Below, piece after piece: positions 7,994-56,974 of a stretch of DNA of 64,000 nt. The notes below the pieces were generated by a model that did no database searches, was not told the origin of the DNA, and worked only from the letters and a program-made list of their open reading frames with translations. The stretch's first letter is position 1, and every line of letters starts with the position of its first letter. The DNA comes from Dictyostelium discoideum (Eukaryota). The DNA lies in NCBI GenBank assembly GCA_000004695.1, contig CM000152.2, positions 4,032,001-4,096,000 on the forward strand. Reading direction: 5' to 3'. Made by a program: the position numbers and the translations under genes.

Positions 7994-10224
<2,231 letters not shown>

Positions 10225-42834: not shown

Positions 42835-45522
<2,688 letters not shown>

Positions 45523-46244
45523 TTTAATTTTAATTTTTTTTTTTTTTTTGGTTGTGATTAAAAAAAAAAAAAAAAAAAAAAAATGGTCAGTAAAAAAAAA
45601 AAAAAAAAAATGACCAGTAAAAAATTTCAAATAAAACCCAGAAATTAATTCAAATAATTGAATACTTTGTTAATTAAATTTTAATTTAAAAATAAAAAGT
45701 CTGATAATTAAAAAAAAAGAAATTTAAATAATAAAAAAAAAAAAAAAGTTTGGTAAATTTTTTTATAAAAATAAATACTAGTAATATAATATATTTATAT
45801 ATTATTTATTTAATCGAACGATCGTACCCCAAAAAAAAAAAAAAAAAAAAAAAAAAAATGAAAAAAAAAATAGTTTAAAATGGTGCCATTATAAAAATAA
45901 TTTTTACATATAATAATCAAACACATTCAATGAAATTTCCAATTTTTTTTAAAAATAAAAAAAATAAAAAAAAAAAAAAAAAAAAAAAATTAAAAAAACA
46001 AAATTTGTCATATTCCGGAACTATTAATATCTTTTATTTTTTTTTATTTTTTTTTCTGACTAACAATACCAGAACACATAAAGAATTAATGAATTCTTGA
46101 ATAAAAAAAAATGGTTTTTTTATAAAAGACTCATTTTAATTTTAATTTTTTTTTCATTCATTTTAAAATAATAAAAAACAAATATAAAAACAAATAAAAA
46201 AACAAATATAAAAATAAATATAAAAACAAATAAAAACAAATAAA

Positions 46245-46571
46245 ATGTCAAGTGTTTCAAGAAAAGTTTCAAATGTTGCAAAAGGTTATAAAACTAAAGA
46301 TGGTGCAGGTGTATCACTTTTACGTGTTATTGGTGGACCTATCCCATCAAAATCAGTTGATCCATTCTTAATGTTAGATGCATTTAAATCAGAGAATCCA
46401 AATGATTATATTGCAGGTTTCCCATCACATCCACATAGAGGTCAACAAACTTTAACCTATATGATAGATGGTATAATGGAGCACAAAGATAACAAAGGAA
46501 ATAAAGGATTACTAAAACCTGGTATGGTTCAAGTTATGAATGCTGCAAGAGGGTATGTTTTTAAATATTAT

Positions 46572-46610
<39 letters not shown>

Positions 46611-47227
46611 AATACTAATAATTCAAAATAATAATATATATATAAAGTATTATTCACTCAGAAATGCCAAAACAAGTTGAAGGTAAAATGTTTGGATTTC
46701 AATTTTGGTTAAATTTAGCAGCAGTCGATAAAATGTCAGATCCATGGTACAAAGATATTCCAGCAGAAGAGATTCCAGAAGTTATTACGAATGATAAAAA
46801 GGTTAGAGTTGTTGCAGGTCATTATGAAGGTGTTGAAGGTATTGTTAAAGGTTTACGTGTTAATCCAATCTTTTTAGATGTTACATTATCACCAAACACT
46901 AAATTCTCTGTAGATATACCAAATTTCGATCATAATTCATTTGTTTATGTTTTCGAAGGTGAAGGTAAATTCGGTCCAGAAGGATATGAAAAAGTTGTAG
47001 CTGATCAACATATTGGTGTTTTAGAGAATAAAGACAGAGTTACAATTAATGATAATGAAATTACACCAAATAAATTAGATGCAATCGCAGGTGAAAATGG
47101 TGTTAGATTCTTATTTTTATCAGCAAAACCATTACGTGAACCAATTGTCCAACATGGTCCATTCGTTATGAATACACAAAAAGAAATTCAACAGGCTTTT
47201 TTTGATTACCAAATGGGTAGATTTTAA
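46245..47227 (+). CDS. Pirin (bicupin, Fe-binding) homologue, 2 exons, 295 aa
   Basis: Exon 1 is 46245-46552 and exon 2 is 46648-47227. The donor is GTATGT at 46553 and the acceptor ataaag at 46646-47. The splice joins AARG|IIHSEMP. Cupin metal-ligand motifs are present: FPSHPHRGQQTLTYMIDG...H (N-cupin) and MPKQVEGKMFGFQFWLNL. The protein is collinear with human PIR (HPHRGFETVTYVL...GDVQWMTAGRGILHAEMP...LQLWVNL). Confidence 0.85.
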
Positions 47228-47564
47228 TTAATCACCTTTTTTATAAAAAAAAAAAATAATAATAAAGATTAAAAAAAAAAAAATTGTACTATAATTAATG
47301 TAAAGTGGTTATTAAATTAACCCCCCAATTAAACATTTATACTGTTGAATTAGAAAAAAAAATAATAAAATAAAATAAATAATAAAATCTTTTAAATTCA
47401 ATGAAATTAAAACATAAAAAGCAATAATATGATTGTTATATTATTGTATATATATATGGTTATTAAAAAAAAAAAGTTTTATTTTTATTTTAATATTGTT
47501 TTTTATGTTTAAAAAAAAAATGTTAAGTGAATCTTTTTTTGATCGATCGAGAAAAAAAAATTAA

Positions 47565-48314
47565 TTAAAATGGTAAGTTACCAAGAACTTTTGGTAATTG
47601 GACTGATGATTTTAATTTTAATTGTTTAGAATTTGGTTGATTTAAACAAATACTTGGTAATTGGAAGTATGCTGAGTCAGCAGATGGATTGTAATAGTAA
47701 TAGTTTGTTAATGTATATCCACTTGGTGTATTGTTGATATTTTCGGTTGAGCCAGAGATTAATGAACAATCTGATTTATCTACAAGGAGACCGACATTTG
47801 AAGAGTTACCTAAATCACCTGGATTTACTGAAAACATATCACATTGAACAGTACCTAATTCGAAATCACCAACATACTTTAATCCTTCAAGTGATGGAGT
47901 AGAGTATGATAATGGTTGTTGGAAACAATAATCAGTACCATTTACATTAACACTAACGTATTGTGTACTATTACTACCGAAACCCCAGAGATTACCTTTT
48001 GTTTTTGTATTACCATTATCGAATAAAAAGTCAACATACAATTGTTCACCAGCCAAATCAATATTCATAAAACCAGATTCAAGGAAAGATGATTGTTGGA
48101 TACCACTTGGAGTTGGATAATTTCCATTAAAACTTAACATAACATAAGAACTTGAATAACCTGTTGGAAGTTGGCCACTTGAAGTAAAACATTGTTGTTG
48201 ACCTACTTGATTTTCAATTTTTGAGTAATCAATTTTATTTGTACCCATACTAAATGATTTACAACAATTTAATGCAACTGTCATTACTAAAATTAAAGAT
48301 AATAATAATTTCAT
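47565..48314 (-). CDS. Secreted Cys-containing protein of unknown function, array copy A (249 aa)
   Basis: An intronless ORF with a signal peptide MKLLLSLILVMTVALNCC, several N-x-S/T sequons and six Cys in the mature part. It is 95-99% identical to copies at 50329-51078 and 53896-54645 and about 85% identical to 56225-56974. Confidence 0.6.
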   Translation of the reverse strand: MKLLLSLILVMTVALNCCKSFSMGTNKIDYSKIENQVGQQQCFTSSGQLPTGYSSSYVMLSFNGNYPTPSGIQQSSFLESGFMNIDLAGEQLYVDFLFDNGNTKTKGNLWGFGSNSTQYVSVNVNGTDYCFQQPLSYSTPSLEGLKYVGDFELGTVQCDMFSVNPGDLGNSSNVGLLVDKSDCSLISGSTENINNTPSGYTLTNYYYYNPSADSAYFQLPSICLNQPNSKQLKLKSSVQLPKVLGNLPF

Positions 48315-49405
48315 TCTTTAATTTTTTTATTTATTTATTTTATTTAATTTTTAAAATTTTTTATTTGTTTTATTTATTTATTTTAAATTATTTGTTTAAT
48401 AAAAAAAAAAAAAAAAAAAAATTATTTATACTAATTTTTTTTTATGGGTATCCGATAATATTTTAAAAAATATATTCGAAAATATTTACCTATAAATTAT
48501 CCTGGAAAATGATATATTTTATTGCCTGGTCATGATGTCAAGAGGACTTGCAAAAATTGATTTATTTGAATTATCTCATTTATTTACAAAATATCGGATC
48601 AAAAGTTTTTTCGAAAATTTAAATAAAAACCGTAATAGAATTATTTTTATATATCAAAGGAATATTTTTATGGTAAATAAAAAAAATTAAAAAGGAATGT
48701 CAGAGAACCTATCTCAGAAAAATGATTTTTTTATTTGGATATTTTATAAAAAAAAAAAAATATCTCAAAATATTTTTTTAAAAAAAAAACCCAGGCAGTG
48801 ATATCATAATCTTAACAAAAGATTGTTAGCCTGGTACTAAATTTATTGAAAAATAAATAAATAAAAAAAAATAGAATTTTAAATGTTTACAATTATTTAT
48901 TTGTAGTTCGAGAAAAAAAAAAAAAAAAAAAAATTAATTTAAATCATCAAAAAGTGTTTGTAACTCTAAAAAAATAATTAAATAAAAATAAATAAAGTAA
49001 AATATAAAAAAAATAAAAAAAAAATTAAAACACCTTCCAAAAAAATTAAAGTTAAAACACCTTCAGTTAATTAATTTTAATAATAATAATTAAAAAAAAA
49101 AAAAAGACGAAAAAGACAAAAAAAAAAAAAAAAAAAAAAATGAAAACATTTGGGTAAAAAAAAAAATATCCCAAAAATAAATTGGAATTCTGGAATAAGA
49201 TTTTTTTTTATTTTTTATTTTTTATTTTTTTTATTTTTTTTTATAATTAGCAATACCAGAACGTACAGGGAATTCATGAATAAGATAATGATTTTTTATA
49301 AAGACTCATTTTTATTTTTTTTATTCATTTTAAAAAAAAAATAAAAAAAAACAAAACAAATATAAACAAATATAAAACTAATAAAAATAACTAATATTAA
49401 ATAAA

Positions 49406-49981
49406 ATGTCAAGCATTTCAAGAAAAGTTTAAAATGTTGCAAAAGGTTATAAAACTAAAGATGGCGCAGGTGTATCACTTTTACGTGTTATTGGTGGACC
49501 TATCCCATCAAAATCAGTTGATCCATTCTTAATGTTAGATGCATTTAAATCAGAGAATCCAAATGATTATATTGCAGGTTTCCCATCACATCCACATAGA
49601 GGTCAACAAACTTTAACCTATATGATAGATGGTATAATGGAGCACAAAGATAACAAAGGAAATAAAGGATTACTAAAACCTGGTATGGTTCAAGTTATGA
49701 ATGCTGCAAGAGGTGAAGGTAAATTCGGTCCAGAAGGTTATGAAAAAGTTGTAGCTGATCAACATATTGGTGTTTTAGAGAATAAAGATAGGGTCACAAT
49801 TAATGATAATGAAATTACACCAAATAAATTAGATGGAATCGCAGGTGAAAATGGTGTTAGATTCCTCTTTTTATCAGCAAAACCATTACGTGAACCAATC
49901 GTTCAACATGGTCCATTCGTTATGAATACACAAAAAGAAATTCAACAAGCTTTTTTTGACTACGAAATGGGTAGATTTTAA
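49406..49981 (+). pseudogene. Pirin pseudogene (array unit 2): early nonsense codon plus internal deletion
   Basis: ATG at 49406. Codon 9 is TAA (AAAGTTTAAAATG here, against AAAGTTTCAAATG in copy 1). The exon-1 end is fused directly to the middle of exon 2 (…NAARG|EGKFGPEGYEK…). This removes the intron and about 115 codons, including the MPKQVEG..FWLNL cupin segment. Confidence 0.65.
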
Positions 49982-50328
49982 TTAATCACCTTTTTTATAA
50001 AAAAAAAAATAATAATAATAAAGATTAAAAAAAAAAATTGTATTATAATTAATGTAATATGGTTATTAGATTATTAACCACCCAATCAAACAGACATTAT
50101 ACTGTCGAATTAAAAAATTATAAAAATAAAAATAATAAAATAAAATAAATAAAATCTTTTAAATTCAATGAAATTAAAACATAAAAAGCAATAATATGAT
50201 TGTTATATTTTTGTATATATGGTTATTAAAAAAAAAGTTTTATATTTTTATTTTAATATTGTTTTTTATGTTTAAAAAAAAAAGTTAAGTGAATCTTTTT
50301 TTGATCGATCGAGAAAAAAAAAATTTAA

Positions 50329-51078
50329 TTAAAATGGTAAGTTACCAAGAACTTTTGGTAATTGGACTGATGATTTTAATTTTAATTGTTTTGAATTTGG
50401 TGGATTTAAACAAATACTTGGTAATTGGAAGTATGCTGAATCTGCAGATGGATTGTAATAGTAATAGTTTGTTAATGTATATCCACTTGGTGTATTGTTG
50501 ATATTTTCGGTTGAGCCAGAGATTAATGAACAATCTGATTTATCTACAAGGAGACCGACATTTGAAGAGTTACCTAAATCACCTGGATTTACTGAAAACA
50601 TATCACATTGAACAGTACCTAATTCGAAATCACCGACATACTTTAATACTTCAAGTGATGGAGTAGAGTATGATAATGGTTGTTGGAAACAATAATCAGT
50701 ACCATTTACATTAACACTAACGTATTGTGTACTATTACTACCGAAACCCCAGAGATTACCTTTTGTTTTTGTATTACCATTATCGAATAAAAAGTCAACA
50801 TACAATTGTCCACCGGCCAAATCGATATTCATAAAACCAGATTCAAGGAAAGATGATTGTTGAATACCACTTGGAGTTGGATAATTTCCATTAAAACTTA
50901 ACATAACATATGAACTTGAATAACCTGTTGGGAGTTGGCCACTTGAAGTAAAACATTGTTGTTGACCTACTTGATTTTCAATTTTTGAGTAATCAATTTT
51001 ATTTGTACCCATACTAAATGATTTACAACAATTTAATGCAATTGTCATTACTAAAATTAAAGAAAATAATAATTTCAT
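50329..51078 (-). CDS. Secreted Cys-containing protein, array copy B (249 aa)
   Basis: An intact paralogue of 47565-48314, with a few substitutions. Confidence 0.6.
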   Translation of the reverse strand: MKLLFSLILVMTIALNCCKSFSMGTNKIDYSKIENQVGQQQCFTSSGQLPTGYSSSYVMLSFNGNYPTPSGIQQSSFLESGFMNIDLAGGQLYVDFLFDNGNTKTKGNLWGFGSNSTQYVSVNVNGTDYCFQQPLSYSTPSLEVLKYVGDFELGTVQCDMFSVNPGDLGNSSNVGLLVDKSDCSLISGSTENINNTPSGYTLTNYYYYNPSADSAYFQLPSICLNPPNSKQLKLKSSVQLPKVLGNLPF

Positions 51079-51975: not shown

Positions 51976-52613
51976 ATGTCGAGTGTTTCAAGAAAAGTTT
52001 CAAACGTCGCTAATGGTTATAAAACTAAAGATGGTGCAGGTGTATCACTATTACGTGTTATTGGTGAACCTATCCATCAAAATCAGTGGATCCATTCTTA
52101 ATGTTAGATGCATTTAAATCAGAGAATCTAAATGATTATATTGCAGGTTTCCCATCACATCCACATAGAGGTCAACAAACTTTAATCTATATGATTGATG
52201 GTATAATGGAACACAAGATAACAAAGGAAATAAAGGATTACTAAAACCTGGTATGGTTCAAGTTATGAATGCTGCAAGAGGGTATGTTTTAATTATTATT
52301 AAAAAATATAAAAAAAAAAAAAAATAAAATAAAATAAATCTAATAAATACTAATAATAATTCAAAATAAAAATATATAGTATTATTCATTCAGAAATGCC
52401 AAAACAAGTTGAAGGTAAAATGTTTGGATCAATTTTGGTTAAATTTAGCAGCAGTCGATAAAATGTTAGATCCATGGTTGAAAATGGCGTTAGATTCTTA
52501 TTTTTATCAGCAAAACTATTACATGAACCTATTGTTCAACATGGTCCATTCGTTATGAATACACAAAAAGAAATTCAACAAGCTTTTTATGATTACCAAA
52601 TGAGTAGATTTTA
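51976..52613 (+). pseudogene. Pirin pseudogene (array unit 3): frameshifts and large deletions
   Basis: ATG at 51976. There are single-base deletions relative to copy 1 (CCTATCCATCAAAATCAGTGGATCC; CACAAGATAAC). A large deletion joins …AAVDKM(L)DPW directly to ENGVRFLFLSAK. Confidence 0.65.
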
Positions 52614-53049
52614 ATTAATCACCTTTTTTATAAAAAAAAAAAAAATAAATAAATAAAAAAAAAAAAAAAATAAGAAACATAAAAAAAAAAAAATGGTAAT
52701 TATATTATAGTTAAAAAATTAAAAAAAAAATATAGTAACAAAATATTAGTTTAAAAAAAAAAAAAGTTTTGTTTATTTCTTTGTTTGAAATTTGGTTTAA
52801 TATTATTTTCCAAATATTTTTGACAAATAAAAAAAATAAAAGGTAATAGATATTTTTTGGAATCTATATTTATGTATGTTTTTTTAGTTTTTAGAAAAAT
52901 AAGATACATTTTATTTATTGATAATATATTGAATACTAATTTTTCGTGTGTATTAATATTAAATTATATTAAAATAAAAATTTTAAATCATTAAAAAAAA
53001 GTGAAAAAAGATAATACAAAAACAGAAACCCTAAGATTTAATTGTTTTG

Positions 53050-53754
53050 GGTATATAGTCTGGTGAATCAGGATTTAAAAATAAATCAATCTCAGAAATA
53101 GTTAAAGAAATTTATGAAAATATCGATGGAATGACAATGAGTGGTAAAAAAGATGGAAATTCAAACATTGGTGGTTTCATTGCAACAAGACATAAGGAAT
53201 GGTATGATAAAGCAAGTATTGTTAATATCATTTATGAAGGATATGTAACATATGGTGGTATGACAGGTAGAGATATGGGTGCAATGGCTCAAGGTTTAAA
53301 TGAATCAATGGATTTTGAATATTTAAAATCAAGATGTAAACAAGTTGAATATCTTGCAAATAAACTTGATAAATATGGTGTTCCATTTCAAAGACCATTT
53401 GGAGAACATGCGTTATTCATTGATGCAAAGAAAATACTTGGTCATATTCCAATTGATGATTTAATTGCTCAAACATTAGCTATTGAAATTTATTTAGAAG
53501 GAGGTGTAGGAAGTGTTGAAATTGGCACCCTTTTAGCCGATAGAGATCCAATTACTCAAGAAAACTGATATCCTCAATTAGAGTTTGTAAGACTAGCAAT
53601 TCCAAGAAGATCATATACAAATAATCATATGAAAGTAGTAGCTGTAACACTTAAAAATGTTTATGATAAAAGATTAAAAGTTAAAAGTGGTTATAAAATT
53701 ATTCATGAAGCACCAATTCTCAGACATTTTACTGTTGAATTAGAAAAGTTATAA
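53050..53754 (+). pseudogene. Relic C-terminal fragment of a tryptophanase / tyrosine phenol-lyase family (beta-eliminating lyase) gene, with an internal TGA
   Basis: The translation GESGFKNKSISEIVKEIYENIDGMTMSGKKDGNSNIGGFIATRHKEW...[166 protein letters not shown] is collinear with the C-terminal about 230 aa of bacterial TnaA (…AMSAKKDAMVPMGG...[21 protein letters not shown]...QYL...[50 protein letters not shown]...LLRLTIPRATYTQTHMDFI...YEPKVLRHFTAKL). The PLP-lysine (SAKKD, compare SGKKD) is retained. An in-frame TGA (53566-53568) is AGA in the unit-4 copy. The fragment begins at an intron-acceptor-like tatatag with no upstream exons found. Confidence 0.6.
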
Positions 53755-53895
53755 ATAAAAAATTTATCAAATAAAATAAATAAATAAAATCTATGAAATT
53801 AAAACATATCTATGATTTTTTATAATTATTTTTTTATTTTATTTTAATTAATATGTCTTTTTTTTTTTTTCAATTTGAAAAAAAAAAAAAAAAAA

Positions 53896-54645
53896 TTAAA
53901 AAGGTAAGTTTCCAAGAACTTTTGGTAATTGGACTGATGATTTTAATTTTAATTGTTTAGAATTTGGTGGATTTAAACAAATACTTGGTAATTGGAAGTA
54001 TGCTGAATCAGCATATGGATTGTAATAGTAATAGTTTGTTAGTGTATATCCACTTGGTGTATTGTTGATATTTTCAGTTGAGCCAGAGATTAATGAACAA
54101 TCTGATTTATCTACAAGGAGACCGACATTTGAAGAGTTACCTAAATCACCTGGATTTACTGAAAACATATCACATTGAACAGTACCTAATTCGAAATCAC
54201 CAACATACTTTAATCCTTCAAGTGATGGAGTAGAGTATGATAATGGTTGTTGGAAACAATAATCAGTACCATTTACATTAACACTAACGTATTGTGTACT
54301 ATTACTACCGAAACCCCAGAGATTACCTTTTGTTTTTGTATTACCATTATCGAATAAAAAGTCAACATACAATTGTTGACCAACCAAATCGATATTCATA
54401 AAACCAGATTCAAGGAAAGATGATTGTTGAATACCACTTGGAGTTGGATAATTTCCATTAAAACTTAACATAACATATGAACTTGAATAACCTGTTGGGA
54501 GTTGGCCACTTGAAGTAAAACATTGTTGTTGACCTACTTGATTTTCAATTTTTGAGTAATCAATTTTATTTGTACCCATACTAAATGATTTACAACAATT
54601 TAATGCAATTGTCATTACTAAAATTAAAGAAAATAATAATTTCAT
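53896..54645 (-). CDS. Secreted Cys-containing protein, array copy C (249 aa)
   Basis: An intact paralogue. Confidence 0.6.
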   Translation of the reverse strand: MKLLFSLILVMTIALNCCKSFSMGTNKIDYSKIENQVGQQQCFTSSGQLPTGYSSSYVMLSFNGNYPTPSGIQQSSFLESGFMNIDLVGQQLYVDFLFDNGNTKTKGNLWGFGSNSTQYVSVNVNGTDYCFQQPLSYSTPSLEGLKYVGDFELGTVQCDMFSVNPGDLGNSSNVGLLVDKSDCSLISGSTENINNTPSGYTLTNYYYYNPYADSAYFQLPSICLNPPNSKQLKLKSSVQLPKVLGNLPF

Positions 54646-54723: not shown

Positions 54724-55323
54724 TTAATTTATTTATTTATTTAATTATTTATTTATTTATTTTAAATTATTAAAATTATAAAAAAAAAAAAAAAAAAAAA
54801 TTATTTATACTTTTTTTTTTTTTAAGTATCCGATAATATTTTAAAAAATAAATTCAAAAATATTAAGCAATTGATTATCCTGAAAATATTTTTTTTGCCT
54901 GGTTATGATGTCATGTGGTTTCAAAAATTGATTTATTTGAAATATCATATTTATTTATGAAATTTCAAATTTTCTAGAGAAATTAAAAAAAAAACCGTAA
55001 AGTATTTATTTTTTTTTCTTATTAGACGAATATTTTTATAGTAAATAAAAAAAAGATTAAAAAAGAATGTTAAAGAATCTCAGAAAAAACATTTTTTTAT
55101 TTGGATATTTTTTAAAAATAATATCTGAAAATATTTTTAAAAAAAAAAAAACCCAGGCAGTGATATCATAATCTCAATAAAAGATTGTTAACCTGGTACT
55201 AAATTTATTTTTATTTTATTAAATTTTTTATTTTATAATAAAAAATAAAAAAAATAGGATTTTAAATGGTTTTTGTTATTGTTATTTTAGTGGTTTATTT
55301 GTAATTTGAGTTTTTGAGGGGAT

Positions 55324-55362
<39 letters not shown>

Positions 55363-55716
55363 ATCACAAAGTGAGTAATCCAAACTCTGAAAAATAAAAT
55401 GAATATAAAAAAAAATAAAAAATTAAAGATAAAACCCCACAGGTCAAAAAAAAAAAAAAAGAAAATATTTAAATAAATATAAAAATTAAGGGTGGTTGGA
55501 TGTAAAAATTTCAGCATTAAAGTGGTGAAAAGTAATTTTGTGGGTTTGTCGCCTTTTTATTTTTTTATTTTATATGCGACTTAATAAAAATAAAAAATGA
55601 AATTTAAAATGATTTGTTTTTATTTTTTTTATTTTTTTTATTTTTTTTTTTTTTTTAATTTTTAATTTTTAATTTTTTATTTTTTTAATTTTTTTTTTTA
55701 TAATTAGCAATACCAG

Positions 55717-56069
55717 TTGGAGAACATGCGTTATTCATTGATGCAAAGAAAATACTTGGTCATATTCCAATTGATGATTTAATTGCTCAAACATTAGCTA
55801 TTGAAATTTATTTAGAAGGAGGTGTAAGAGGTGTTGAAATAGGTACCCTTTTAGCTGATAGAGATCCAATTACTCACGAAAATAGATATCCTCAATTAGA
55901 GTTTGTAAGACTAGCAATTCCAAGAAGATCATATACAAATAATCATATGAAAGCCGTAGCTGTAACACTTAAAAATGTATATGATAAAAGATTTGAAATT
56001 AAAAGTGGTTATAAAATTATTCATGAAGCACCAATTCTAAGACATTTTATGTTGAATTAGAAAAGTTAT
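55717..56069 (+). pseudogene. Shorter relic of the same tryptophanase-like gene (array unit 4), fused directly to the conserved pirin-upstream block
   Basis: The junction reads TAATTAGCAATACCAG|TTGGAGAACATGCG. The fragment encodes [112 protein letters not shown]. It has no start codon and no pirin. Confidence 0.55.
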
Positions 56070-56224
56070 AACTAATAATAAAATAAAATAAAAAACAAAA
56101 GAAAATAAAATTAAACTAAATCAATGAAATTAAAATATGAATAAGATTGTTTTTTATTTTATTTTAATATTAATTAATTTGAGAATCTTTTTTTTTTTTT
56201 CAATTTAAAAAAAAAAAAAATTAA

Positions 56225-56974
56225 TTAAAATGGTAAGTTTCCAAGAACTTTTGGTAATTGGACTGATGATTTTAATTTTAATTGTTTAGAATTTGGTGGA
56301 TTTAAACAAATACTTGGTAATTGGAAGTATGCTGAATCAGCAGATGGGTTGTAATAGTAATAGTTTGTTAATGAATATCCACTTGGTGTGTTGTTAATAT
56401 TTTCAGTTGAAGCAGAGATTAATGAACAATCTGATTTATCTACAAGGAGGACAAGATTTGTAGAGTTAGCTAAACTACTTGGACTACCTGCAAACATATC
56501 ACATTGAACAGTACCTAATTCGAAATCAGTAATATAGTTTAATCCTTCGATTGCTGGAACTGAGTATGATAATGGTTGTTGGAAACAATAATCAGTACCA
56601 TTTACATTAACACTAACGTATTGTGTACTATTACTACCGAAACCCCAGAGATTACCTTTTGTTTTTGTATTACCATTATCGAATAAAAAGTCAACATACA
56701 ATTGTTGACCAACCAAATCGATATTCATAAAACCAGATTCAAGGAAAGATGATTGTTGAATACCACTTGGAGTTGGATGGTTTCCATTAAAACTTATCAT
56801 AACATAAGAACTTGAATAACCTGTTGGGAGTTGGCCACTTGAAGTAAAACATTGTTGTTGACCTACTTGATTTTCAATTTTTGAGTAATCAATTTTATTT
56901 GTACCCATATTAAATGATTTACAACAATTTAATGCAATTGTCATTACTAAAATTAAAGAAAATAATAATTTCAT
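56225..56974 (-). CDS. Secreted Cys-containing protein, array copy D (249 aa), the most divergent copy
   Basis: The ORF is intact and the signal peptide conserved. There are about 30 amino-acid substitutions clustered around positions 140-200. Confidence 0.6.
   Translation of the reverse strand: MKLLFSLILVMTIALNCCKSFNMGTNKIDYSKIENQVGQQQCFTSSGQLPTGYSSSYVMISFNGNHPTPSGIQQSSFLESGFMNIDLVGQQLYVDFLFDNGNTKTKGNLWGFGSNSTQYVSVNVNGTDYCFQQPLSYSVPAIEGLNYITDFELGTVQCDMFAGSPSSLANSTNLVLLVDKSDCSLISASTENINNTPSGYSLTNYYYYNPSADSAYFQLPSICLNPPNSKQLKLKSSVQLPKVLGNLPF

What the first reader, a model, noticed from the sequence alone, without database searches (positions are those of the whole stretch)
53050..53754. Relic of a tryptophanase-like (beta-eliminating lyase) gene embedded in the array, a possible dead horizontally acquired gene
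Units 3 and 4 carry fragments whose translation is collinear with the C-terminal about 230 residues of bacterial tryptophanase or tyrosine phenol-lyase. The fragments include the PLP-lysine region (SGKKD), [8 protein letters not shown]-like [28 protein letters not shown]-like [32 protein letters not shown] and the C-terminal [10 protein letters not shown]. The unit-3 copy has an in-frame TGA. Both lack a start. The unit-4 copy is fused directly onto the pirin upstream block. Units 1 and 2 retain only the last about 20 bp (ATACTGTTGAATTAGAAAA at about 47345 and about 50100). So the ancestral unit was pirin, then a tnaA-like gene, then the secreted gene, and the tnaA-like gene has been erased progressively. 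The fragment begins at an intron-acceptor-like tatatag, which suggests it was once a spliced eukaryotic gene. Tryptophanase is a typically bacterial enzyme. An amoeba that preys on bacteria is a plausible recipient by horizontal transfer. Indole production by such a gene would matter for predator-prey signalling.
Basis: partly seen in the sequence, partly recalled or inferred. Interest (0 to 1): 0.7.

Follow-up and report, generated by a model that had tools for sequence, protein, structure and literature searches.

The report
Dead tryptophanase gene remnant in Dictyostelium
This stretch of the Dictyostelium discoideum AX4 genome is the broken back half of a tryptophanase gene taken long ago from Bacteroidota-like bacteria; the gene and its bacterial origin were already published, but close relatives still carry intact copies at the same spot, so the lab strain's copy died recently.

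Summary
Window 53059-53754 (+) encodes residues 227-457 of a tryptophanase (PDB 8sbg E=9.5e-89; Pfam PF01212), with one in-frame TGA (53566-53568) and no native start. A shorter copy (residues ~339-457, frameshifted) lies at 55709-56071. The window is D. discoideum AX4 chromosome 3. The fragment is annotated as DDB_G0281127 (UniProt Q54UE3) plus DDB_G0281129. DDB_G0281127 is the published "Beta_elim_lyase" horizontal-transfer candidate (Eichinger 2005; Sucgang 2011, Table 2), so the core idea is already known.

New here:
- Intact, intronless 456-460-aa orthologues sit beside pirin in D. cf. discoideum (two tandem copies, syntenic) and D. dimigraforme. Another lies in an isolate labelled D. discoideum; its 4-kb contig holds no pirin gene. 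They evolve at dN/dS about 0.11.
- They form a clade (200/200) that groups with Bacteroidota-type TnaA (196/200).
- Other isolates carry differently broken copies.
- The AX4 junction shares its left breakpoint and a TAGTCT motif with a less-truncated allele, which argues for stepwise 5' erosion.

The "intron acceptor" tatatag is intergenic DNA at a deletion junction, not evidence of a spliced gene.

Verdict: a real pseudogene relic of a known transferred gene. Interest is modest.

The parts
53059..53754 (+). Unit-3 relic of tnaA: codons 227-457 plus the stop codon. It lacks a promoter, a start codon and the N-terminal half. It is annotated as exon 2 of DDB_G0281127 (53059-53568) and as DDB_G0281129 (53629-53754).
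53566..53568 (+). In-frame TGA replacing an Arg codon (AGA in unit 4 and in every relative). This Arg is invariant in the 119 bacterial and metagenomic homologues aligned.
53052..53061 (+). Deletion junction tatatagtct. The left side is pirin-tnaA spacer. TAGTCT is shared with the junction of the less-truncated allele of isolate ACTFIR. The coding sequence resumes at codon 228.
52615..53058 (+). Spacer homologous to the pirin-tnaA intergenic region of relatives. The annotated 'intron' of DDB_G0281127 (52696-53058) lies inside it. The one-codon ATG exon is at 52693-52695.
55709..56071 (+). Unit-4 relic of tnaA: codons ~339-457, with a 1-nt deletion in codon 451. It shares the G342E replacement with unit 3.
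55217..55649 (+). Pirin-upstream spacer block of unit 4. The pirin gene itself is missing. A T-rich run (55650-55708) joins this block to the tnaA relic.
47279..47357 (+). Unit-1 tail: degenerate last ~30 codons of tnaA.
50033..50123 (+). Unit-2 tail: the same deletion junction as unit 1, so the deletion predates the unit 1/2 duplication.
46245..47227 (+). Unit-1 pirin gene: two ORFs around a short AT-rich gap read as an intron. It is the only pirin copy in the array without an obvious disruption.
49216..49981 (+). Unit-2 pirin block (upstream spacer plus coding part) with an internal deletion.
51976..52614 (+). Unit-3 pirin pseudogene, broken into several short ORFs.
47565..48314 (-). Ependymin-like secreted gene, unit 1 (249 aa, intact).
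50329..51078 (-). Ependymin-like gene, unit 2 (249 aa, intact).
53896..54645 (-). Ependymin-like gene, unit 3 (249 aa, intact).
56225..56974 (-). Ependymin-like gene, unit 4 (249 aa, intact).

Best explanation
The region is a non-functional remnant (unitary pseudogene) of a tryptophanase gene, tnaA. Tryptophanase converts tryptophan to indole, pyruvate and ammonia.

**Origin and working life.** An ancestor of the group-4 social amoebae acquired the gene from a Bacteroidota-type bacterium. It became a normal amoeba gene: intronless, with AT-rich codon usage, sitting next to pirin and held under purifying selection. It is still intact in some close relatives.

**Decay in AX4.** In the lineage leading to D. 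discoideum AX4, the pirin-tnaA-ependymin unit was tandemly amplified to four units and the tnaA copies were destroyed by deletions:
- Units 1 and 2 share one deletion that left only the last ~30 codons.
- Unit 3 lost the promoter and codons 1-227, most likely in two steps: first promoter to codon ~52, then codons 53-227. It then picked up a stop codon and replacements at invariant residues.
- Unit 4 lost everything from the pirin-upstream spacer to codon 338 and has a frameshift.

No indole-producing enzyme can be made from this locus.

**Shown:** identity, truncations, stop codon and frameshift, synteny, intact orthologues, selection regime, phylogenetic position.

**Inferred:** the order of the deletions, the donor phylum, and the loss of activity.
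For: **Identity**
- The fragment hits PF01212, NF053783 and PDB tryptophanase.
- It has the tryptophanase-type VEIG and LRHFT motifs rather than the phenol-lyase type.
- Intact Dictyostelium orthologues pass the NF053783 equivalog cut-off (787-808 bits against 750). They fail the tyrosine phenol-lyase cut-off (529-536 bits against 720.7).

**Pseudogene status**
- There is no start codon and residues 1-226 are missing.
- Unit 3 has a TGA and unit 4 a frameshift.
- Unit 3 departs from positions at least 95% conserved in bacteria at 12.9% of covered sites, against 6.7-8.0% in intact orthologues. The departures include G342E, R377G and R396stop.
- AX4 and the SRR28564542 contig differ by 4 non-synonymous and 0 synonymous changes.

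**Ancestral unit and intact orthologues**
- L001 and L005 have a single pirin-tnaA-ependymin(-) unit, collinear with the window flanks.
- Intact 456-460-aa ORFs exist in the two D. cf. discoideum ACTFIZ copies, in D. dimigraforme and in isolate ACTFIW.

**Selection**
- dN/dS between intact copies is 0.11-0.12 at dS up to 0.66. Between relics it is 0.25-0.38.
- The relic has GC3 = 0.10, which is fully amoeba-like.

**Bacterial origin**
- In the NJ bootstrap, the Dictyostelium clade is recovered 200/200. Its grouping with the Bacteroidota-type TnaA clade is recovered 196/200.
- The best non-amoeba hits are 63-69% identical. All those that carry a name are from Bacteroidota, apart from one Chlorobiota genome assembled from a metagenome.

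**Stepwise erosion**
- The ACTFIR junction reads GGTTATTAGTCT|TGGTTCAATGAG (codon 53).
- The AX4-type junction reads GGGTATATAGTCT|CGTGAACCAGG (codon 228).
- Both share the same left breakpoint and the motif TAGTCT, which the undeleted spacer lacks.

**Published context**
- DDB_G0281127 is the Beta_elim_lyase transfer candidate with a reported D. purpureum orthologue.
Against: - dN/dS between relics is well below 1, and differences still favour third codon positions (15/6/22). Decay is therefore recent, or the NG86 estimates are distorted by the extreme AT bias. I did not calibrate against a known neutral sequence.
- The two-step deletion rests on a shared breakpoint and a 6-nt motif.
- The gene distances give ACTFIW-ACTFIR dS of 0.065, against 0.15 for AX4-ACTFIR. 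This does not fit a simple history in which ACTFIR and AX4 share a deletion that ACTFIW lacks. It would fit only if the ACTFIW copy belongs to a different array unit or gene conversion has occurred.
- Absence of an intact copy elsewhere in AX4 is shown only for the annotated proteome and this 64-kb window, not by a whole-genome tblastn.
- I could not retrieve the D. purpureum orthologue myself.
- Transcription of the relic was not examined.
Confidence: 0.9

Rival explanations
1. DDB_G0281127 is a genuine protein-coding gene, as annotated. It would make a 170-aa truncated lyase-like protein with a new, non-catalytic role, using the ATG-plus-intron model.
For: Gene models exist in two annotations. 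dN/dS against relatives is below 1.
Against: - The model's first exon is a single ATG inside spacer DNA that is intergenic in relatives.
- The ORF ends at a TGA that replaces an invariant Arg.
- Invariant residues are replaced (G342E, R377G).
- The two AX4-type strains differ only by non-synonymous changes.
- The N-terminal half is absent. From established knowledge of E. coli TnaA, that half carries the catalytic Tyr and the Asp that binds the PLP ring.
- Other isolates break the gene in other places.
Confidence: 0.04
2. The AX4 truncation (to codon 227) and the ACTFIR truncation (to codon 52) arose independently, not as two steps on one allele. This would mean recurrent deletion at a fragile AT-rich site.
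For: ACTFIR tnaA is closer to the intact ACTFIW copy (dS 0.065) than to AX4 (0.15). AT-rich spacers are prone to repeated slippage and deletion.
Against: The left breakpoints coincide to within a few nucleotides. Both junctions carry TAGTCT, which the undeleted spacer lacks. TAGTCT can be derived from codons 50-52 (GATAGTGGTACT) of the gene.
Confidence: 0.25
3. The similarity reflects a native, vertically inherited eukaryotic PLP enzyme, or a different fold-type I enzyme, rather than a bacterial acquisition.
For: One paper suggests some protist tnaA genes may be inherited from a eukaryotic ancestor (PMC8537960 conclusions).
Against: - Full-length identity to Bacteroidota TnaA is 63-69%, and the intact proteins pass the NF053783 equivalog cut-off.
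- The grouping with the Bacteroidota-type clade is recovered 196/200.
- All other family representatives are more than twice as distant (0.84 or more, against 0.39-0.42).
- The gene is intronless.
- It is listed as phylogenetically embedded in a bacterial clade.
Confidence: 0.03
4. The fragmentary state is an assembly error, or bacterial contamination in the AX4 reference.
For: Tandem arrays are hard to assemble. The intact ACTFIW copy sits on an isolated 4-kb contig.
Against: An independent chromosome-scale assembly has the same four units. Contig L002, from an independent sequencing run, has the same junction and TGA. GC3 is 0.10 and amoeba genes flank the relic on both sides.
Confidence: 0.01

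Closest known systems
DDB_G0281127 / UniProt Q54UE3 'Putative beta-eliminating lyase-like protein', the Beta_elim_lyase horizontal-transfer candidate of Eichinger 2005 and Sucgang 2011
   Same: It is this very sequence: 53059-53568 plus a one-codon exon. The bacterial origin and a D. purpureum orthologue are already published.
   Different: The papers list it as a gene of unknown function. Here it proves to be the C-terminal half of a dead gene, one of four decayed copies in an array, with intact orthologues in sister lineages.
Bacteroidota-type tryptophanase TnaA (NCBIfam NF053783; closest solved structure 8sbg_A)
   Same: The match is collinear to the last residue. The PLP-lysine motif SxKKD, VEIG and LRHFT are present. 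Intact Dictyostelium orthologues pass the equivalog cut-off over 457/457 positions.
   Different: The AX4 copy has only positions 229-457, a stop codon and replaced invariant residues. The amoeba genes have AT-rich codon usage (GC3 0.10).
Tryptophanase genes laterally acquired by other protists (Entamoeba, Trichomonas, Mastigamoeba)
   Same: These are bacterial tnaA genes living in a bacterivorous or bacteria-associated protist (PMC4053834; PMC8537960).
   Different: Those are reported as working genes, and indole production is reported for several of these protists. Different donors are proposed (for example Fusobacterium for Entamoeba). Here the gene is being lost.
Tyrosine phenol-lyase
   Same: Same Pfam family and fold, about 47% identity.
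   Different: TIGR02618 scores below its cut-off. The relic has His in LRHFT and Ile in VEIG, where phenol-lyase has Phe and Arg. The residue roles come from my knowledge of the C. freundii enzyme. The top phenol-lyase hit, 2ycp, is, from memory, the F448H mutant.

Membership tests
Beta-eliminating lyase family (Pfam PF01212) | Score above the Pfam gathering threshold | tested here: met
   88.8 bits against 27, E=5.2e-25
Tryptophanase TnaA, Bacteroidota type (NCBIfam NF053783 equivalog) | Whole-protein score above the curated cut-off (750 bits) | tested here: not met
   The AX4 fragment scores 364.8 bits because only positions 229-457 exist. Intact orthologues P0397, P0398 and P0517 score 787-808 and pass. 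The ancestral gene was a member; the AX4 relic is only a remnant of one.
Tryptophanase TnaA | PLP-binding lysine in the S-x-K-K-D motif | tested here: met
   MSGKKD in the fragment aligns with MSAKKD of 8sbg
Tryptophanase TnaA (versus tyrosine phenol-lyase) | Substrate-specificity positions: His in LRHFT and Ile in VEIG, where phenol-lyase has Phe and Arg | tested here: met
   The sequence reads VEIG and ILRHFT. TIGR02618 scores below its cut-off in intact orthologues. The residue roles come from my own knowledge, not from a tool.
Tryptophanase TnaA | Complete ORF with the N-terminal and large PLP-binding domains | tested here: not met
   Residues 1-226 are absent from the whole window. There is a TGA at 53566.
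Tryptophanase TnaA | Catalysis of tryptophan to indole, pyruvate and ammonia | not testable with these tools
   This needs an enzyme assay on the intact orthologues.
Pseudogene | Disabling lesions plus relaxed constraint relative to intact orthologues | tested here: met
   Truncations, stop codon and frameshift. 12.9% departures at conserved sites against 6.7-8.0% in intact copies. dN/dS 0.25-0.38 against 0.11.
Bacterium-to-eukaryote horizontally transferred gene | Groups with a bacterial clade with support, and is physically integrated among host genes | tested here: met
   Grouping recovered 196/200 in the bootstrap. The gene is flanked by pirin and ependymin-like genes in six assemblies.
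Bacterium-to-eukaryote horizontally transferred gene | Absence from other eukaryotic lineages, or patchy distribution | not tested
   This rests on the literature only.

The most novel reading that the evidence does not exclude
Tryptophanase may be a live-versus-dead polymorphism across the D. discoideum species complex. It has been inactivated at least twice independently: by an internal deletion in ACTFIY and by 5' deletions in ACTFIR and AX4. Open reading frames persist in ACTFIZ (two copies), ACTFIW and D. dimigraforme. On this reading, wild amoebae differ in whether they can make indole, a bacterial signalling molecule, and this affects how they prey on or carry bacteria.
Probability: 0.3. 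Interest if true: 0.5.

Novelty: already known. Interest (0 to 1): 0.3.

Why it matters
It corrects how a textbook transfer candidate is read. The D. discoideum 'Beta_elim_lyase' gene, listed for twenty years as a bacterial acquisition of unknown function, is in the reference strain only a dead half-gene. The working enzyme survives in sister lineages.

This gives a dated example of a transferred gene being gained, domesticated and then lost. It also provides a natural allelic series (intact, lacking codons 1-52, lacking codons 1-227, lacking codons 107-232). That series could be used to test whether amoeba-made indole matters in amoeba-bacteria interactions.

It does not reveal a new kind of element or mechanism.

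Tried and rejected
1. **Short-query protein searches.** Searches with the C-terminal fragment alone and the N-terminal 104 aa alone returned only proteins shorter than about 1.75 times the query. They therefore missed every full-length homologue. I nearly concluded that no intact Dictyostelium gene exists. A 335-aa composite query found them.
2. **A TGG allele.** Protein P0123 from SRR28564542 appeared to read Trp at the stop position. The DNA shows the same TGA; the gene caller had used another genetic code.
3. **Finding the D. purpureum orthologue.** The representative-library search and cluster look-ups gave only unnamed metagenomic proteins, one crustacean entry and one archaeal entry. It was not found.
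4. **P0048 as a candidate amoeba protein.** It is K/N/I-rich and sits on a 346-kb contig, but its neighbours are bacterial.
5. **The Eichinger 2005 paper.** It could not be opened by PMC id or DOI. I used papers that cite it.
6. **Other paper searches.** Searches for 8SBG and for D. dimigraforme found nothing.
7. **tRNA scan.** A scan of 45-60 kb found no tRNA genes.
8. **Intron-acceptor reading.** Rejected after comparison with relatives.

Full report
**What the window is.** The DNA is very AT-rich. ORF 53629-53754 is an exact match to DDB_G0281129 of Dictyostelium discoideum AX4, on a 6.36-Mb contig. The 170-aa protein DDB_G0281127 (UniProt Q54UE3, 'Putative beta-eliminating lyase-like protein') is Met plus the translation of 53059-53565. 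The window is therefore AX4 chromosomal DNA.

**Checking the observation.** Translating 53059-53754 gives 231 codons with a single internal stop, TGA at 53566-53568.
- It scores 88.8 bits on Pfam PF01212 against a cut-off of 27.
- It aligns without gaps to residues 250-478 of the 479-residue tryptophanase 8sbg_A (E=9.5e-89). Tyrosine phenol-lyases are weaker (about 1e-60) and E. coli-type tryptophanases weaker still (about 1e-43).
- NCBIfam's Bacteroidota-type 'tryptophanase TnaA' equivalog NF053783 matches positions 229-457 of 457.
- A tblastn of a full-length bacterial homologue against the 64 kb finds only this fragment (residues 229-457) and a second one at 55713-56054 (residues 339-452). 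No N-terminal half exists anywhere in the window.
- The second copy has a 1-nt deletion in codon 451.
Both share the same junction.
- Upstream of the unit-4 copy, 55217-55649 is weakly homologous to the spacer that precedes pirin in unit 3, and more clearly to the equivalent spacer in another isolate. This supports 'fused onto the pirin upstream block'.

**Not an assembly artefact.** An independent chromosome-scale D. discoideum assembly (L003) has the same four units with the same two lyase fragments. A contig from sequencing run SRR28564542 (L002) is 98.8% identical across 52681-53885 and has the same junction and the same TGA. Its predicted protein shows Trp at that position only because the gene caller read TGA as a sense codon.

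**What is already published.** Sucgang et al. [quoted passage not shown] It is among the candidates retained from the 18 horizontal transfers proposed in the 2005 genome paper, and it has a D. purpureum orthologue, DPU_G0057350. A 2021 survey repeats this and lists a D. purpureum tnaA. The bacterial origin of this exact sequence is therefore not new. Those papers treat it as a gene.

**Relatives.** My first two protein searches returned only short proteins and no full-length homologue. A 335-aa composite query then found intact Dictyostelium proteins.

| Isolate or species (locus) | Labelled as | State of tnaA at the locus |
|---|---|---|
| ACTFIZ (L005) | D. cf. discoideum | Single pirin, two tandem intact 457-aa tnaA genes, then the ependymin-like gene on the opposite strand. 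Flanks are collinear with the window. |
| D. dimigraforme (L006) | D. dimigraforme | Intact 460-aa tnaA immediately upstream of pirin. |
| ACTFIW (L008) | D. discoideum | 456-aa open frame on a 4-kb contig. |
| ACTFIR (L007) | D. discoideum | Three-unit array whose last unit keeps codons 53-457. |
| ACTFIY (L001) | D. cf. discoideum | Single unit. tnaA keeps its ATG and codons 1-104, lacks codons ~107-232, has a 39-nt filler copied from downstream at the junction, and has a 1-nt deletion in codon 449. |

All intact genes are single uninterrupted ORFs. In this region these isolates are only about 85-94% identical to AX4, so species labels should be read with care.

**The 'intron acceptor'.** The AX4 sequence up to ...GGGTATATAG aligns with intergenic spacer that lies about 190 bp upstream of the true start codon in L001. 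The annotated model obtains its Met from a lone ATG at 52693-52695, followed by GT, and splices across this spacer. With intronless intact orthologues, this is a prediction artefact and not a trace of a spliced gene.

**Stepwise erosion.**
- The ACTFIR junction reads GGTTATTAGTCT|TGGTTCAATGAG, resuming near codon 53.
- The AX4-type junction reads GGGTATATAGTCT|CGTGAACCAGG in L002, resuming at codon 228.
- The undeleted spacer reads GGGTTATATGGAAAAAAA.
- Intact genes read GATAGTGGTACTGGT at codons 50-54 and AAAACTCGAGAACCA at codons 226-230.

Both junctions share the left breakpoint and TAGTCT, which can be derived from codons 50-52. I infer a first deletion (promoter to codon ~52) common to both, then a second deletion in the AX4 lineage between the two ACT codons. 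This is an inference. The gene distances do not fit it simply: ACTFIW-ACTFIR dS is 0.065, against 0.15 for AX4-ACTFIR. Independent deletions therefore remain possible. The deletion in units 1 and 2 is shared with ACTFIR, because the alignment runs contiguously through it. The array therefore predates that split. Units 3 and 4 are each other's closest relatives (dS 0.107) and share G342E.

**Selection.**
- Intact-versus-intact comparisons give dN/dS of 0.11-0.12 at dS up to 0.66. The gene was maintained as a working amoeba gene.
- Pairs of relics give 0.25-0.38.
- Relics depart from positions at least 95% conserved in 118 bacterial homologues about twice as often as intact copies (12.9-13.6% against 6.7-8.0%). 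Their private hits include G342E, R377G and R396stop in AX4, and R318K, R388K and A421V in ACTFIY.
- AX4-ACTFIY differences by codon position are 15/6/22. My hand chi-square is about 9 with 2 d.f., so evolution was not neutral over the whole divergence. This fits recent inactivation in each lineage after a functional common ancestor.
- The lesions in ACTFIY and AX4 are different. AX4 keeps six codons that ACTFIY lacks, so these two losses are independent.
- The relic's GC3 is 0.10, which indicates long residence in the amoeba genome.

**Origin.** In a neighbour-joining tree of 76 full-length sequences, the four Dictyostelium proteins are monophyletic (200/200). They group with the tight clade of best hits (196/200), whose named members are Bacteroidales, Dysgonamonadaceae, Tenuifilaceae, Plebeiibacterium, Labilibacter, Saccharicrinis, Sunxiuqinia and one Chlorobiota genome assembled from a metagenome. 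They branch as sister to that clade (149/200). All other family representatives are more than twice as distant. A Bacteroidota-type donor is therefore the best inference. Eukaryote sampling was thin and the method simple.

**Mechanism and verdict.** The ancestral product was a tryptophanase. The intact orthologues pass the curated equivalog cut-off and fail the phenol-lyase one. The AX4 copies cannot make it. They lack the N-terminal 226 or more residues. From established knowledge of E. coli TnaA, those residues include the catalytic tyrosine and the aspartate that pairs with the PLP ring. The copies also carry a stop codon or a frameshift.

Its interpretation is right on identity, death, bacterial origin and ancestral order, and wrong on the intron. 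The central idea was already in the literature. The additions are the pseudogene status of a long-listed 'gene', the intact syntenic orthologues and the allelic series. These are useful but ordinary.

Noticed in passing
window 47565-48314, 50329-51078, 53896-54645, 56225-56974 (all on the - strand): All four ependymin-like (PF25544) 249-aa genes of the array keep intact ORFs at 90-98% identity, while pirin and tnaA decay in the same units. This suggests the amplification was retained for the dosage of this secreted protein.
   Followed up: partly
window 46245-47227, 49216-49981, 51976-52614: The pirin copies form their own decay series. Unit 1 shows no obvious disruption, unit 2 has an internal deletion, unit 3 is shattered into short ORFs, and unit 4 has none.
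   Followed up: partly
L001 9886-9940: The internal tnaA deletion in D. cf. discoideum ACTFIY is bridged by a 39-nt filler copied from 10158-10196 of the same gene. The sequence GGAGCTG lies on both sides. This is a signature of templated, microhomology-mediated repair.
   Followed up: partly
L005 10001-11374 and 13564-14937: D. cf. discoideum ACTFIZ has two tandem intact tnaA genes (98.7% identical proteins) with unrelated upstream regions. The same locus is therefore expanding tnaA in one lineage while deleting it in others.
   Followed up: no
L006 10001-12960: In D. dimigraforme the order is tnaA then pirin, with no ependymin-like gene nearby. The tnaA-pirin linkage is older than the discoideum-type arrangement, but the order differs.
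   Followed up: no
window 52693-53058: The gene model DDB_G0281127 relies on a one-codon first exon (ATG) and a 363-nt 'intron' made of intergenic spacer. The model looks like a prediction artefact and could be retired or flagged as a pseudogene.
   Followed up: yes
(tool behaviour): With short queries, the search for homologous proteins listed only proteins up to about 1.75 times the query length. Full-length homologues, including the decisive Dictyostelium ones, were invisible until a longer query was used.
   Followed up: yes
window 42835-45630 (-): A long ORF rich in asparagine runs, orthologous to an 874-909-aa gene with no recorded Pfam hit in the relatives, flanks the array on the left.
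   Followed up: no
proteins P0246, P0248, P0250 and similar: Several ~850-930-aa proteins in the representative library contain two tryptophanase-like stretches, which suggests tandem-fused tryptophanases. Their origin is unknown.
   Followed up: no
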